From the NCBI RefSeq assembly GCF_965641715.1, contig NZ_OZ282453.1: a stretch of 64,000 nt of DNA, one strand, 5' to 3'. Source of the stretch: Escherichia coli. GTDB taxonomy: Bacteria > Pseudomonadota > Gammaproteobacteria > Enterobacterales > Enterobacteriaceae. Every line of letters starts with the position of its first letter. Within the stretch, counting starts at the first letter, position 1. Shown one piece after another: positions 1-6,000 of this stretch. Position numbers: made by a program.

Positions 1-3000
1 TTCGGGCCGGTGAGGATCAATGGTAAAACCTGATCTTTGTTGGCCGGGTTCATTAAAATTCCCAGCAAATACAGCAACTCTTCTGCCGTACCCACACCGC
101 CAGGGAAGATAATGATACCGTGAGCGATACGGACAAACGCTTCCAGACGTTTTTCGATATCTGGCATGATGATCAATTCGTTGACCAGCGGGTTAGGCGG
201 TTCAGCGGCGATAATCGACGGCTCTGTCATACCAATAAAACGACTGTCTTTGTAACGCTGCTGCGCGTGTCCGACCGCAGCACCTTTCATCGGCGCTTCC
301 ATCGCTCCCGGACCACAGCCGGTGCAGATATTCAGCTCACGCAGGCCCAGCTGGTTTCCGACGCGACGGGCATACAAATACTCATTTTCGTTAATTGAGT
401 GACCGCCCCAGCAGACCACCATATTTGGCGCTTCACCCACATGCAGCGCGCGAGCGTTACGCAAGATGGAAAAGACCAGGTTAGTGATGTGGACGGAGTT
501 GTCGAGATTCAGGTTGGGAAAACGAACGGTGTTATGGATTTGCCCGTAAACGAAGAGAATGTCTCGCAGAACCGCGAACAAGTTGGCCTGCAAAGCGCGA
601 ATAATTCGCCCATCGACAAAAGCCTCTTCCGGGGGATTAATCAGTTCCAGCTTTACGCCGCGTTCACGGCGCAGGACGTTAATATCGAAATTTTCAAAAC
701 GAGACAGCAATTCTTTGCTGTTATCGGTCAAACTACCGGAGTTCAGTACGGCAAGTGAACAGTTGCGAAACAATTGATAGAGGTCGCTGCTGGCGGTGCG
801 TTTAAGCATATCCACTTCCAGCTGCGACAACATATCCATGGAGCCAAGCGGGCTAATATGTGTAATCAAGAAAAACTCCTTATGGGACGAATATCGTCAT
901 TCCCTTTGATTACAATAGCCCTGCCTGATGACCTTTCACAACCTTCTGCGTGAATCCAGCACGCAAAATTGAGAAAAAATTTATTGCCGAACCAGTCTTG
1001 TGGTCGATGGGACAAAATCGCTATTACTGCGCCACGGGTTAATGTCCAGACCGCCACGACGGGTATAACGTGCGTAAACGCTCAATTTCTCTGGCTGGCA
1101 GAAGCGTAACAGGTCATTAAAGATGCGTTCCACGCACTGTTCGTGGAACTCGTTGTGATGACGGAATGAGACCAGGTAACGCAGCAGTTTTTCTCTGTCA
1201 ATTTGGCGTCCACGATACTGAATTTGGATCGAACCCCAATCTGGTTGATGGGTGATCAGGCAGTTTGATTTCAGCAGGTGGCTGACAAGCGTCTCTTCCA
1301 CTACTTTTTCACCACAGGTGGCATTCTCCAGATAGTCAGTAGTGAATTCATAGTTATCGATAGTGATATCCTGGTCATCAATGCAAGTGCCATTGAAATG
1401 ACCTATCGGCTGGCCTTCCAGTTCATCAAGACGATATAACGCCACGCTAACATTACCCTGAGCGCAAGTGCTTAAGTCGCGCTCCAGCGTCTGGCGCACC
1501 TCATCCCAGTTATTAAAACGCGTCTGGTTAAAACTGTTGAGATAGAGCTTAAAACTCTTCGACTCAATCAGATTTACGCTGGTGTAATCAAGTTCAACAT
1601 GACCGACAGCGACCTGCGGCAAACCTTTCGCATTCAGCCAGGAAAGTTCATACAGCGTCCAGATGTCCGCACCTTGAAAAGGCAGGTTATCCGCTTTCAG
1701 ACCCAGCGGATCGCGATTCAGGCTGCGTGGAACGCCTTGCAGTAGGCTGGCGTCATAGGTATCCCGGTAATCGGTTGATTTTCCAAGAGTCAGGCCCGCA
1801 AGTGCCTGATGGTTTGCATAAGAAGACATGTTTCACCGTCATAAACCAGATAAACTAAACGACAAGTGTATCTGGTTTAAGTGAAGAGAGAAATTAGTGG
1901 ACGATTTGACCGCACAAGCCCTGAAAGATTTTACTGCACGCTACTGCGATGCGTGGCATGAAGAGCATAAAAGCTGGCCGTTAAGTGAGGAACTGTACGG
2001 CGTTCCTTCACCGTGCATTATTTCAACTACTGAAGATGCCGTATACTGGCAACCCCAGCCGTTTACCGGGGAACAAAATGTAAACGCGGTTGAACGCGCT
2101 TTTGATATTGTGATACAACCCACAATTCATACCTTTTATACGACTCAGTTTGCCGGGGATATGCACGCGCAGTTTGGCGATATCAAACTGACATTGCTGC
2201 AAACCTGGAGTGAAGACGACTTCCGTCGGGTGCAGGAAAATCTGATTGGTCATCTGGTGACTCAGAAAAGGCTAAAACTGCCACCCACGCTATTTATCGC
2301 GACGCTGGAAGAAGAGTTAGAGGTCATCTCGGTGTGTAATCTCTCCGGTGAAGTGTGTAAAGAGACGCTGGGAACACGTAAACGGACGCATTTAGCCTCA
2401 AATCTTGCGGAATTCCTTAATCAACTTAAGCCTCTTCTGTAATCCAAATACCCCATCTGGTTGTGAGAGATCTCTTACAGACTCTGTAGGAGATCGCCAG
2501 GAAATAAGCGAATACTTAAAAAGATAAGAATCGTTATTTTCATTTAAAAACAACATGTTGCTTGTTAATTCCTAACTTTCATATGAAATTTTCCTTAAGG
2601 CATTGTCTGTAAGCGCCTTGTAAGACTTCGCGAAAAAGACGATTCTATCTTCGTCGACAGGGAGTCAGACAACGAAGTGAACATCAGGATGATGACACTT
2701 CTGAAGGACACACCAGGATGGTGTTTCAGGGAAAGGCTTCTGGATGAAGCGAAGAGGATGACGCAGGACGCGTTAAAGGACACCTCCAGGATGGAGAATG
2801 AGAACCGGTCAGGATGATTCGGTGGGTCAGGAAGGCCAGGGACACTTCAGGATGAAGTATCACATCGGGGTGGTGTGAGCAGGAAGCAATAGTTCAGGAT
2901 GAACGATTGGCCGCAAGGCCAGAGGAAAAGTTGTCAAGGATGAGCAGGGAGCAACAAATGTAGCTGGAATGCTGCGAAACGAACCGGGAGCACTGTGAAT

Positions 3001-6000
3001 ACAGTGCTCCCTTTTTTTATTCCTGCTATCCTTCGCGGCAGTTTTTCTTATTGAGGTTGCTTTATGACCACTCATGACCGCGTTCGTCTCCAGTTGCAGG
3101 CGCTTGAAGCGTTACTGCGTGAACATCAGCACTGGCGAAACGATGTACCCCAGCCGCATCAATTTAATAGTACCCAACCGTTCTTTATGGACACCATGGA
3201 ACCACTGGAGTGGTTGCAGTGGGTGCTGATCCCGCGAATGCACGATTTGTTAAATAACAACCAGCCGTTACCGGGCGCTTTTGCCGTTGCTCCCTATTAT
3301 GAAATGGCGCTGGCGACGGACCATCCGCAACGCGCGCTTATTCTGGCTGAGTTGGAAAAACTGGATGCTCTTTTTGCGGATGATGCGAGCTAATGCTGGA
3401 AATACTCTATCAGGATGAATGGCTGGTTGCGGTAAATAAACCCTCCGGCTGGCTGGTTCACCGCAGCTGGCTGGATCGCGACGAGAAAGTAGTGGTCATG
3501 CAAACCGTGCGTGACCAGATAGGACAGCATGTTTTTACTGCTCATCGTCTGGACCGACCCACTTCTGGTGTGTTGTTGATGGGATTATCCAGCGAGGCCG
3601 GACGGCTGCTGGCACAACAGTTTGAACAGCACCAAATCCAGAAACGTTACCATGCGATTGTGCGCGGCTGGTTGATGGAAGAAGCGGTGCTGGATTATCC
3701 ACTGGTGGAAGAACTGGACAAAATCGCTGATAAATTTGCCCGCGAAGATAAAGGCCCGCAGCCAGCAGTGACGCATTATCGCGGTCTGGCGACCGTAGAA
3801 ATGCCGGTAGCGACCGGACGTTACCCGACCACGCGCTACGGCCTGGTGGAACTGGAGCCGAAAACCGGACGCAAACATCAGCTTCGCCGACATCTTGCCC
3901 ATTTGCGTCATCCGATTATTGGCGATAGCAAACATGGCGATTTACGCCAGAATCGCAGCGGTGCTGAGCATTTTGGTCTTCAGCGGTTAATGCTGCATGC
4001 CAGTCAGTTGTCATTGACGCATCCTTTTACTGGCGAGCCGCTGACTATTCACGCGGGCCTGGACGACACCTGGATGCAGGCGTTATCACAATTTGGCTGG
4101 CGCGGTCTGCTTCCTGAAAATGAAAGGGTTGAGTTCAGTGCGCCATCAGGTCAGGATGGAGAGATAAGTTCCTAATCCAGGGAGAAAACGGTATGGCGGA
4201 AATTGGTATTTTTGTCGGCACCATGTACGGAAATTCGCTGTTAGTGGCGGAAGAAGCAGAAGCAATTCTGACCGCACAGGGCCACAAAGCAACGGTATTT
4301 GAAGATCCTGAATTAAGCGACTGGCTGCCCTATCAGGATAAGTATGTTCTGGTGGTTACGTCCACGACCGGGCAGGGCGACCTTCCTGATAGCATTGTGC
4401 CGCTCTTTCAGGGAATCAAAGATAGTCTGGGCTTCCAGCCGAATCTGCGTTATGGCGTGATTGCGCTCGGCGACAGCAGTTATGTAAATTTCTGCAATGG
4501 CGGCAAACAGTTCGATGCCTTGTTGCAGGAACAGAGCGCTCAGCGGGTTGGCGAAATGCTGTTGATTGACGCCAGTGAGAACCCGGAACCGGAAACGGAA
4601 TCAAATCCGTGGGTCGAACAGTGGGGCACGCTGTTGTCCTGATATGTTCAGCGAGCGGTAAATGTCGTTTTAGCGGTGCTGAATCGAATCTTTTCAGGCA
4701 AATGCCAGTAAAAACTGCTTCATAGCGCGGATTTTTACTGGCGTTTGCCTGGAGTCAAGCGATCCATTTCATACTCTTCTTTATTTCTTCGTTTTAACCC
4801 TTCCTTTCTTGTTCTTGTTTTCATTTCCGTGAAGTGGATTCCACCGTCCAGGGCTAATGCCAAAATCGGGCCTCATTGAACGCATTAATGTTGTGTTGTT
4901 GCACGGTGAGCCGCTATGGCGCGCTTTTTATACTGCTATTGCCAGATATAAACACGCGCCGTATTCGGCGAACGACCTATAAAAACGGCAAAAAACACCC
5001 TACGTCACCTCTGATTTCCTGGCGATGTCGCAGTCCAGAGTGAGCGTGGCTAACGCGAATTTTCAGGAGTGCAACAATGAGTTCTTTAAGTCAGGCTGCG
5101 AGCCGTGTGGAAAAACGCACGAATGCTCGTTACTGGATAGTGGTGATGTTGTTTATCGTCACATCCTTCAACTACGGCGACCGCGCTACGCTTTCTATTG
5201 CCGGTTCGGAAATGGCCAAAGATATCGGCCTTGATCCCGTGGGAATGGGCTATGTGTTCTCTGCCTTCTCATGGGCTTATGTTATCGGGCAGATCCCTGG
5301 TGGTTGGTTGCTGGATCGTTTTGGTTCAAAACGCGTCTACTTCTGGTCGATCTTTATCTGGTCGATGTTTACCTTGCTGCAAGGCTTCGTCGATATCTTT
5401 AGTGGATTCGGCATTATCGTTGCCCTGTTTACTCTGCGCTTCCTGGTCGGGCTTGCTGAAGCGCCATCTTTCCCCGGCAACAGTCGCATTGTTGCGGCCT
5501 GGTTTCCGGCGCAGGAAAGGGGAACGGCGGTGTCGATTTTTAACTCCGCTCAATACTTCGCAACGGTGATCTTCGCGCCGATTATGGGCTGGCTGACGCA
5601 TGAAGTGGGCTGGTCACACGTCTTCTTCTTTATGGGCGGTCTGGGGATTGTCATCAGCTTTATCTGGTTGAAAGTCATCCACGAGCCAAATCAACATCCG
5701 GGGGTAAATCAGAAAGAGCTGGAGTACATCGCCGCGGGTGGCGCGCTGATCAATATGGATCAGCAAAACACCAAAGTTAAAGTGCCGTTCAGCGTGAAGT
5801 GGGGGCAGATCAAACAGCTGCTCGGATCACGGATGATGATCGGCGTTTATATCGGTCAGTACTGTATCAACGCCCTGACTTACTTCTTCATTACCTGGTT
5901 CCCGGTTTATCTGGTGCAGGCGCGCGGGATGTCGATTCTGAAAGCGGGCTTTGTGGCTTCCGTTCCGGCGGTTTGCGGTTTTATCGGCGGTGTGCTGGGT

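What the first reader, a model, noticed from the sequence alone, without database searches (positions are those of the whole stretch)
2462..3020. CsrB sRNA with about 20 GGA motifs and an upstream UvrY-box palindrome; barA lies in the same window
The syd-yqcC intergenic region encodes the 370-nt CsrB RNA, full of CAGGAUG-type CsrA-binding motifs and ending in a strong terminator. The 18-bp inverted repeat TGTGAGAGATCTCTTACA sits at about -180. barA, whose kinase drives UvrY to this site, is about 7 kb away, so sensor and target of the BarA-UvrY-CsrB circuit are both present.
Basis: partly seen in the sequence, partly recalled or inferred. Interest (0 to 1): 0.35.

Follow-up and report, generated by a model that had tools for sequence, protein, structure and literature searches.

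The report
Ordinary E. coli csrB gene

Summary
The finding is correct and already known. Rfam scores window 2662-3021 (+) as CsrB at 384 bits against a threshold of 71, E = 1e-111. The syd-yqcC spacer (2443-3063) is 614/621 identical to E. coli K-12 MG1655. There, csrB (b4408, 369 nt) maps to window 2653-3021.

The RNA carries 22 GGA triplets, against about 5.5 per 369 nt elsewhere in the window. Twenty are unpaired in the centroid fold. Eleven of the 12 Rfam consensus hairpins show GGA in the loop. The RNA ends in an 11-bp perfect stem followed by seven U.

The 18-bp repeat TGTGAGAGATCTCTTACA lies at 2462-2479, centred at -183/-182. That is the sequence and position footprinted for phospho-UvrY by Zere et al. 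2015. The extra half-site TGTAGGAGA (2485-2493) is also in that paper.

barA (9364-12120, minus strand, 918 aa) is intact. uvrY is not in the window. The gene order matches K-12.

The only departures from K-12 are seven substitutions. Four cluster in the IHF/ArcA zone (-103 to -81), which varies between E. coli lineages.

Minor leads: two TGTAAG half-site cores at the -35, and an unassigned palindrome at -76..-65.

The parts
2462..2479 (.). 18-bp inverted repeat TGTGAGAGATCTCTTACA, the phospho-UvrY binding site, centred at -183/-182
   Evidence: It occurs once in the window and was found as palindrome I9. It is identical in sequence and position to the footprinted site of PMC4682653. In a species-representative genome collection, 99 of 125 occurrences of the same box family have at least 14 GGA per 250 nt nearby.
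2485..2493 (+). Additional UvrY half-site-like sequence TGTAGGAGA, 5 bp downstream of the inverted repeat (-168..-160)
   Evidence: (I3). It is described as a 'partially conserved additional sequence' in PMC4682653. TGTRRGA is conserved in 16 Enterobacteriaceae promoters.
2548..2560 (+). IHF-like core AAACAACATGTTG (-105..-93). It matches 12 of 13 positions of WATCAANNNNTTR; K-12 has AATCAAAATGTTG, 13 of 13
   Evidence: Alignment to K-12. No exact IHF consensus lies in the spacer. The CA...TT columns are invariant across 17 enteric promoters. PMC4682653 places an IHF site between the two UvrY crosslink zones, but its exact bases are only in a figure. This assignment is my inference.
2564..2573 (.). 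ArcA site reported for K-12 csrB (U00096.3 2924604-2924613), mapped onto the window as GTTAATTCCT. One substitution relative to K-12 lies at 2572
   Evidence: Coordinates come from PMC12266141. They were converted through the K-12 alignment.
2618..2646 (+). Weak sigma-70-type promoter: -35 TTGTAA (2618-2623), 17-bp spacer, -10 GATTCT (2641-2646)
   Evidence: Inferred from spacing to the annotated +1 (2653) and from conservation of cTTGTAAGAc and the invariant GATTCTAT across 17 enteric promoters. It matches 7 of 12 consensus positions, which is below the threshold of the consensus scan, so that scan found nothing.
2653..3021 (+). CsrB small RNA, 369 nt, with 22 GGA motifs
   Evidence: Rfam RF00018 at 384 bits, E = 1e-111. 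It differs at 3 of 369 bases from annotated K-12 csrB b4408. The fold has a z-score of -4.46.
2986..3021 (+). Intrinsic terminator of csrB: 11-bp perfect stem, GAAU loop, seven U
   Evidence: I6; -21.3 kcal/mol. K-12 has a G-U pair where the window has A-U, at 2992.
9364..12120 (-). barA, the tripartite sensor kinase that phosphorylates UvrY
   Evidence: NCBIfam NF008318 BarA equivalog, 1623.9 bits against a cut-off of 890, residues 1-917 of 918. It occupies the same position as K-12 b2786.
1897..2442 (+). syd, the upstream flanking gene
   Evidence: NCBIfam NF003439, 286.7 bits. K-12 b2793.
3064..3393 (+). yqcC, the downstream flanking gene, which starts 42 nt after the csrB terminator
   Evidence: ORF. 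Annotated as yqcC at the same coordinates in collinear genomes. It has no NCBIfam hit.

Best explanation
Window 2653-3021 (+) is the E. coli csrB gene. Its 369-nt untranslated transcript displays about 20 exposed GGA motifs, in short hairpin loops and in single-stranded linkers. These motifs bind and sequester dimers of the RNA-binding regulator CsrA, which relieves CsrA's control of its mRNA targets.

Transcription starts from a weak sigma-70-type promoter and depends on activation from far upstream. BarA, encoded 6-9 kb away in the same window, phosphorylates UvrY, which is encoded elsewhere. UvrY-P binds the 18-bp inverted repeat at -191..-174, with an adjacent third half-site at -168..-160. 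IHF bending near -100 brings UvrY-P to the promoter. An intrinsic terminator ends the RNA at 3021.

Shown here: the identity of the RNA, the motif count and placement, the terminator, the identity and position of the UvrY site, the presence of intact barA, and the synteny. Taken from the literature: CsrA sequestration, UvrY-P binding, and the IHF and ArcA roles. Inferred by me: the -35 and -10 hexamers and the exact IHF core.
For: - Rfam CsrB scores 384 bits against a gathering score of 71, over the full model.
- The spacer is 614/621 identical to MG1655, where csrB b4408 is annotated, with the same flanking genes in the same order.
- The spacer is present in 5425 of 5426 complete E. coli genomes.
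- There are 22 GGA, against a window background of 5.5 +/- 2.7. Twenty of the 22 are unpaired in the centroid fold. Eleven of the 12 Rfam consensus hairpins have GGA in the loop (alignment).
- The terminator is confirmed.
- The inverted repeat is identical to the DNase I and ChIP-exo UvrY-P site, centred at -183/-182.
- In a collection with one genome per species, the box TGTRAGAGATCTCTYACA was found at 125 places. Of these, 99 have at least 14 GGA per 250 nt within about 100-300 nt, against a background mean of 3.7 and 99th percentile of 9.
- Rfam CsrB lies on the predicted side of the box in 11 of 13 diverse loci tested.
- BarA matches its equivalog over its full length.
Against: Nothing contradicts the identification.

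- The consensus promoter scan finds no promoter at its threshold, which fits an activator-dependent promoter.
- The spacer has no exact IHF consensus in this strain: the core is 12 of 13 here against 13 of 13 in K-12.
- Binding of CsrA, UvrY-P and IHF cannot be tested computationally.
- RefSeq records of most strains carry no csrB annotation ('none' under the match). That reflects the annotation pipeline, not the sequence.
Confidence: 0.97

Rival explanations
1. The palindrome and its overlapping second inverted repeat (GATCTCTTACAGA / TCTGTAGGAGATC, 2469-2495) act as an RNA hairpin that ends or stabilises the syd mRNA, rather than as a protein-binding DNA site.
For: The element begins 20 nt after the syd stop codon at 2442. 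As RNA, 2455-2505 folds at -21.8 kcal/mol. The inverted repeat I3 has 13-nt arms that are 92% complementary.
Against: No U-tract follows the hairpin; the next bases are GCCAGGAAAUAAG. The terminator scan reports nothing on the + strand there. The same 18-mer is the footprinted UvrY-P site. It recurs upstream of GGA-rich sRNA genes in Vibrio, Photobacterium, Shewanella, Halomonas and Alcanivorax, whatever gene lies upstream. The second repeat is explained by the third UvrY half-site. A secondary role as a syd 3' stabiliser is not excluded.
Confidence: 0.03
2. The region encodes protein: the minus-strand ORFs 2595-2783 (62 aa) and 2860-3075 (71 aa) are real genes and the GGA richness is a by-product of coding.
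For: The two ORFs appear in the mechanical ORF list.
Against: The region matches a structured-RNA covariance model at E = 1e-111 on the + strand. The K-12 annotation has only the ncRNA there. PGAP calls no CDS in the spacer in a genome whose spacer is 100% identical. The + strand has no ORF of 60 aa or more within the RNA.
Confidence: 0.01
3. The proximity of barA and csrB is functionally meaningful, as a co-inherited or co-regulated sensor-target module, rather than incidental gene order.
For: Both genes lie within 10 kb. The arrangement is shared with K-12 and with strain PapM-32-1.
Against: They are separated by seven unrelated genes (yqcC, truC, yqcA, gudP, gudX, gudD) on mixed strands. 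The obligatory intermediary uvrY is not in the window. The paralogous target csrC is also elsewhere in K-12 (coordinates). I did not test linkage in other genera.
Confidence: 0.1

Closest known systems
csrB of Escherichia coli K-12 MG1655 (b4408; Rfam RF00018 CsrB/RsmB family)
   Same: Same locus (syd-csrB-yqcC), same length (369 nt), same start and terminator. 366 of 369 RNA bases are identical. The UvrY inverted repeat, the third half-site and the promoter are identical.
   Different: There are seven substitutions in the 621-bp spacer. Three are in the RNA: 2704 C>A, which keeps the GGA and matches the Rfam consensus; 2959 A>T; and 2992 G>A, which turns a terminator G-U pair into A-U. Four lie at 2550, 2554, 2561 and 2572, in the IHF/ArcA zone. 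The window's version of -124..-65 is found exactly in about 398 of 5426 complete genomes, including O157:H7. The K-12 version is found in about 2877.
csrB of Salmonella enterica and other Enterobacteriaceae (SirA/UvrY-activated)
   Same: Same 18-bp repeat at the same distance (-182/-181 in Salmonella). In the genera tested, 174.5-191.5 nt separate the repeat centre from the Rfam model start, and the window has 191.5. The third half-site, the CA...TT IHF core, cTTGTAAGAc and GATTCTAT are conserved.
   Different: The spacer between the UvrY site and the promoter is otherwise unalignable between genera.
CsrC of E. coli
   Same: It is a second CsrA-sequestering sRNA activated by BarA-UvrY through an upstream inverted repeat.
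   Different: It is shorter, with 9 reported CsrA sites against 18. Its repeat is weaker (TGTGAGACATTGCCGATA) and it has no IHF site. It lies at a different locus, outside this window.
RsmY/RsmZ of Pseudomonas and CsrB/C/D of Vibrio (GacA/VarA-activated sponge sRNAs)
   Same: Same mechanism, with GGA-loop decoys for CsrA/RsmA, and the same type of upstream palindromic box. The exact box TGTRAGAGATCTCTYACA occurs upstream of GGA-rich RNAs in Vibrio, Photobacterium, Shewanella, Halomonas, Alcanivorax and Kangiella.
   Different: These are different RNA families: shorter, with fewer motifs, and no sequence homology to enteric CsrB beyond the motifs. Several of them are not recognised by any Rfam model at gathering score.

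Membership tests
CsrB/RsmB RNA family (Rfam RF00018) | Sequence-plus-structure match to the family covariance model at or above the gathering score | tested here: met
   384 bits against 71, E = 1e-111, model positions 1-356 of 356, window 2662-3021 +.
CsrB/RsmB RNA family (Rfam RF00018) | Many GGA (CAGGAUG-type) motifs exposed in hairpin loops and single-stranded linkers | tested here: met
   22 GGA against a background of 5.5 per 369 nt. In the centroid fold 12 are in hairpin loops and 8 in linkers. Eleven of the 12 Rfam consensus hairpins carry GGA in the loop.
CsrB/RsmB RNA family (Rfam RF00018) | Non-coding transcript ending in an intrinsic terminator | tested here: met
   No + strand ORF of 60 aa or more lies within 2653-3021. 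The terminator has an 11-bp stem and seven U, at -21.3 kcal/mol.
CsrB/RsmB RNA family (Rfam RF00018) | Orthologous locus (syd-csrB-yqcC) as in E. coli K-12 | tested here: met
   Same flanking genes and order. The spacer is 98.9% identical.
CsrB/RsmB RNA family (Rfam RF00018) | Binds and sequesters CsrA | not testable with these tools
   This rests on published work on the near-identical K-12 RNA (reviewed in PMC7652899; 18 sites cited in PMC12266141).
BarA-UvrY (GacS-GacA type) activated sRNA promoter | 18-bp inverted repeat TGTGAGAGATCTCTTACA far upstream of +1 | tested here: met
   Exact sequence at 2462-2479, centred at -183/-182, as published.
BarA-UvrY (GacS-GacA type) activated sRNA promoter | IHF site between the UvrY site and the promoter | tested here: inconclusive
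   No exact WATCAANNNNTTR in the spacer. The best candidate, AAACAACATGTTG at -105..-93, matches 12 of 13, against 13 of 13 in K-12. Its CA...TT core is conserved across genera, and AAAACA variants occur in other genera. The published site is marked only in a figure.
BarA-UvrY (GacS-GacA type) activated sRNA promoter | Phospho-UvrY binds the repeat and activates transcription | not testable with these tools
   Shown for the identical K-12 sequence by ChIP-exo, DNase I footprinting and a barA deletion (PMC4682653).
BarA sensor kinase (NCBIfam NF008318) | Full-length match above the curated equivalog cut-off | tested here: met
   1623.9 bits against 890, residues 1-917 of 918 aligned to profile positions 1-917 of 920.

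The most novel reading that the evidence does not exclude
The promoter-proximal UvrY ChIP-exo crosslink at csrB (-56..+25) was attributed by Zere et al. to indirect contact because 'the IR is not preserved' there. It may instead reflect direct, low-affinity contact of UvrY-P with two half-site cores, TGTAAG, that lie 11 bp apart at -45..-40 and -34..-29, the second overlapping the -35 hexamer.

In addition, the lineage-specific substitutions in this window (T>A in the IHF core, T>C in the reported ArcA site) could tune csrB output differently in the roughly 7% of E. coli genomes that carry this allele.
Probability: 0.12. Interest if true: 0.3.

Novelty: already known. Interest (0 to 1): 0.07.

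Why it matters
It matters only as a correct annotation. CsrB is the main antagonist of the global regulator CsrA, so locating it and its control region is useful, especially because RefSeq/PGAP records of most E. coli strains leave the spacer unannotated. The biology (a sponge RNA, UvrY-P binding at -183, IHF looping, BarA as the sensor) was established in K-12 and Salmonella years ago, and this window reproduces it almost base for base. The residual value is small: a natural allele of the IHF/ArcA zone, and two unassigned conserved motifs in the promoter that could be tested cheaply.

Tried and rejected
- The sigma-70 consensus scan of 2400-3100 found no promoter. I assigned -35 TTGTAA and -10 GATTCT from spacing to the annotated +1 and from cross-genus conservation instead.
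- The exact IHF consensus WATCAANNNNTTR has 8 hits in the window but none in the csrB spacer. Only a 12-of-13 match exists there.
- Martinez et al. 2014 (PMC3911252), which describes the Salmonella IHF site, is not held. The exact published IHF bases could therefore not be compared.
- A full-text search for the palindrome TTTCATATGAAA returned only unrelated primer and oligonucleotide papers.
- Rfam at gathering score on 11 box-bearing loci found no sRNA family next to the box. These were nine low-GGA non-enteric loci (Alcanivorax x2, Vreelandella, Kangiella, Kangiellaceae, Salinicola, Hahellaceae, an unclassified gammaproteobacterial MAG, Porphyromonadaceae) plus the two GGA-rich loci that had no Rfam CsrB hit (Shewanella colwelliana L011, Vibrio breoganii chr2 L053). 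By eye, most of those I inspected have a short GGA-rich RNA with a terminator. The Porphyromonadaceae and Salinicola sites look like chance occurrences.
- I considered whether the overlapping second inverted repeat (2469-2495) was new. It is the consequence of the third half-site already described in PMC4682653.
- I considered protein-coding and syd-terminator readings and rejected both (see the rival explanations).
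Full report
**Observation.** The stretch 2462-3020 lies in the 621-bp spacer between syd (1897-2442, +; NCBIfam NF003439) and yqcC (3064-3393, +). Rfam's CsrB/RsmB model (RF00018) matches 2662-3021 on the + strand over its whole length at 384 bits. The gathering score is 71 and the E-value is 1e-111.

The spacer aligns without gaps to E. coli K-12 MG1655 at 614 of 621 positions. In MG1655, csrB (b4408) is annotated as a 369-nt ncRNA. This corresponds to window 2653-3021, beginning GTCGACAGGG. A matching spacer is present in 5425 of 5426 complete E. coli genomes. The window as a whole is E. coli chromosome, about 98% identical to strain PapM-32-1 over most of its length.

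**The RNA.** The 369 nt contain 22 GGA triplets. Windows of the same length elsewhere on this strand average 5.5 (sd 2.7, maximum 14 outside csrB). Mononucleotide shuffles of the RNA itself average 12.3 (sd 2.8). There are six exact CAGGATG and eight CAGGA[TA]G.

The predicted fold is more stable than shuffled controls: -119.9 kcal/mol, z = -4.46. In the centroid structure 12 GGA lie in hairpin loops, 8 in single-stranded linkers and only 2 in stems. In the Rfam consensus structure, 11 of the 12 hairpins present GGA in the loop in this sequence, and the twelfth is the terminator (alignment). The terminator is an 11-bp perfect stem with 7 G-C pairs, a GAAU loop and seven U, at -21.3 kcal/mol. 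'About 20 GGA motifs' and 'a strong terminator' are therefore accurate.

**The control region.** TGTGAGAGATCTCTTACA occurs once in the window, at 2462-2479. With +1 at 2653 it spans -191..-174 and is centred at -183/-182. Zere et al. 2015 (PMC4682653) report this exact 18-nt sequence, 'centered at -183/-182 in E. coli'. They describe it as the site crosslinked to UvrY in vivo (ChIP-exo, dependent on BarA) and protected by phospho-UvrY in DNase I footprints.

The repeat finder also shows a second inverted repeat overlapping the right arm (2469-2481 / 2483-2495). This reflects a third half-site, TGTAGGAGA (2485-2493), which the same paper already describes as lying 5 bp downstream of the repeat.

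Between the UvrY site and the promoter, the paper places an IHF site needed for about 10-fold activation. The best candidate here is AAACAACATGTTG (2548-2560, -105..-93). A 2025 study (PMC12266141) adds an ArcA site at U00096.3 2924604-2924613, which maps to window 2564-2573.

I infer the promoter as -35 TTGTAA (2618-2623), a 17-bp spacer and -10 GATTCT (2641-2646). This is a 7-of-12 match, which the consensus scan does not report. It is correctly spaced to +1, and it lies in the blocks cTTGTAAGAc and GATTCTAT that are conserved across 17 enteric promoters.

**Specificity of the box, tested outside E. coli.** Nearly all were in Gammaproteobacteria (Enterobacterales, Vibrionaceae, Shewanella, Halomonadaceae, Alcanivorax, Kangiella).

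At 99 of the 125 sites, a 250-nt window within a few hundred bases on one side holds at least 14 GGA. Background windows from the same loci average 3.7, with a 99th percentile of 9. Rfam places CsrB on the predicted side in 11 of 13 diverse loci tested. In Enterobacterales the distance from the box centre to the model start is 174.5-191.5 nt, and the window has 191.5. So the palindrome is not a chance feature. It is a conserved marker of Csr/Rsm sponge-RNA promoters.

**barA and the circuit.** The ORF 9364-12120 (-), 918 aa, matches the BarA equivalog model over its full length at 1623.9 bits against a cut-off of 890. It sits 6.3 kb from the csrB 3' end and 6.9 kb from the palindrome.

The intervening genes yqcC, truC, yqcA, gudP, gudX and gudD are in the same order as in K-12. 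uvrY is not among the genes of the collinear 64-kb region. The window therefore holds the sensor and the target but not the response regulator. The linkage is ordinary E. coli gene order, and I found no evidence that it is functionally significant.

**Differences from K-12.** There are seven substitutions. Three are in the RNA:
- 2704 C>A keeps the GGA and matches the Rfam consensus.
- 2959 is A>T.
- 2992 G>A converts a terminator G-U pair to A-U.

Four cluster at 2550, 2554, 2561 and 2572 (-103..-81). The first changes the IHF core from AATCAA to AAACAA. The last lies within the reported ArcA site.

This zone is the polymorphic part of the spacer. The window's 60-mer for -124..-65 is found by megablast in only 1579 genomes, 398 of them at 99% identity or more, including O157:H7. 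The K-12 60-mer is found in 4242, 2877 of them at 99% or more. By contrast, the 60-mers covering the UvrY site and the core promoter each match in 5425 of 5426 genomes.

Across genera only the CA...TT of the IHF core is invariant, and AAAACA variants occur in Enterobacter sp. Ag1, Cedecea, Kosakonia and Pluralibacter. The substitution is therefore probably tolerated, but this is untested.

**Rivals.**
- A reading of the palindrome as a syd terminator is unlikely. No U-tract follows it, and the box recurs upstream of sponge RNAs whatever the neighbouring gene.
- The two minus-strand ORFs overlapping csrB are not annotated in any compared genome.

**Verdict.** The feature is the textbook csrB gene with its published UvrY, IHF and ArcA control region. 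It is already known, and interest is low.

Two unassigned details may merit a bench test:
- Two TGTAAG half-site cores lie 11 bp apart at -45 and -34, inside the published promoter-proximal UvrY crosslink zone. Three of the window's 14 TGTAAG lie in this promoter. The -34 copy is kept at a fixed offset in 24 Enterobacteriaceae loci, though that may only reflect conservation of the -35 hexamer.
- A perfect 12-bp palindrome TTTCATATGAAA at -76..-65 is conserved in several genera. I found no literature on it.

Noticed in passing
window 2608-2613 and 2619-2624: Two direct copies of the UvrY half-site core TGTAAG lie 11 bp apart at -45..-40 and -34..-29 of csrB, the second overlapping the -35 hexamer. 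They fall inside the promoter-proximal UvrY ChIP-exo zone (-56..+25), where the published paper says the inverted repeat is not preserved. Three of the 14 TGTAAG in the 64-kb window lie in this promoter. The -34 copy is kept at offset 155-158 from the repeat in 24 Enterobacteriaceae loci. The -45 copy is kept only in Escherichia and Citrobacter.
   Followed up: partly
window 2577-2588: A perfect 12-bp palindrome TTTCATATGAAA lies at -76..-65 of csrB, between the ArcA site and the -35. It is conserved in E. coli, Citrobacter, Pluralibacter and Pseudocitrobacter, and partly in E. albertii and Siccibacter. No regulator has been assigned in the papers I could search.
   Followed up: partly
window 2550-2572: Four of the seven differences from K-12 in the 621-bp spacer cluster within 23 bp, in the IHF/ArcA zone. 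Each strand of K-12 has a perfect IHF consensus here (AATCAAAATGTTG and AATCAACATTTTG). The window has one mismatch in each (AAACAA and AAGCAA). This allele is found exactly in about 398 of 5426 complete E. coli genomes, including O157:H7.
   Followed up: partly
loci L004 (6140-6570), L006, L045, L059, L025, L011, L053: A perfect UvrY/GacA box is followed about 170-200 nt later by a GGA-rich RNA. In Alcanivorax, Vreelandella/Halomonas and Kangiella this RNA is short (about 130-180 nt, 7-11 GGA) and ends in a terminator. In Shewanella colwelliana and on Vibrio breoganii chromosome 2 the GGA-rich region is longer (16-18 GGA per 250 nt). Rfam 15 reports no family there at gathering score. They are probably Rsm/Csr-type sponge RNAs that current models do not cover.
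   Followed up: partly
window 42850-43006 (+): There is an Rfam sok (RF01794) match at 102.6 bits. It overlaps a 50-aa Hok/Gef family gene that a collinear genome annotates at about 42803-42955, between cysH and cas3. This is a chromosomal hok/sok type I toxin-antitoxin locus.
   Followed up: no
window 25349-26353 and 51842-52420; about 43100-51700: There are two type I-E CRISPR arrays, with 17 and 10 repeats of GAGTTCCCCGCGCCAGCGGGGATAAACCG. They flank a cas3-cas2 operon. The cas region does not align at the nucleotide level with that of strain PapM-32-1, apart from a 73% stretch at 50566-51871, whereas the rest of the window is about 98% identical. The strain therefore carries the other E. 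coli I-E cas variant.
   Followed up: no
window 3021-3064: Only 42 nt separate the end of the csrB terminator from the yqcC start codon. The yqcC-truC-yqcA genes must therefore be transcribed either from a promoter inside csrB or by read-through of the csrB terminator.
   Followed up: no
window 13527-15761 and about 62.5-63.5 kb: relA and rpoS are also in the window, by position in a collinear genome. PMC4682653 has a section on the effects of ppGpp and DksA (the stringent response) and tests relA and dksA deletions for UvrY binding at the csrB promoter, so relA is a second gene in the window with a link to csrB regulation. As with barA, this is normal K-12 gene order.
   Followed up: no
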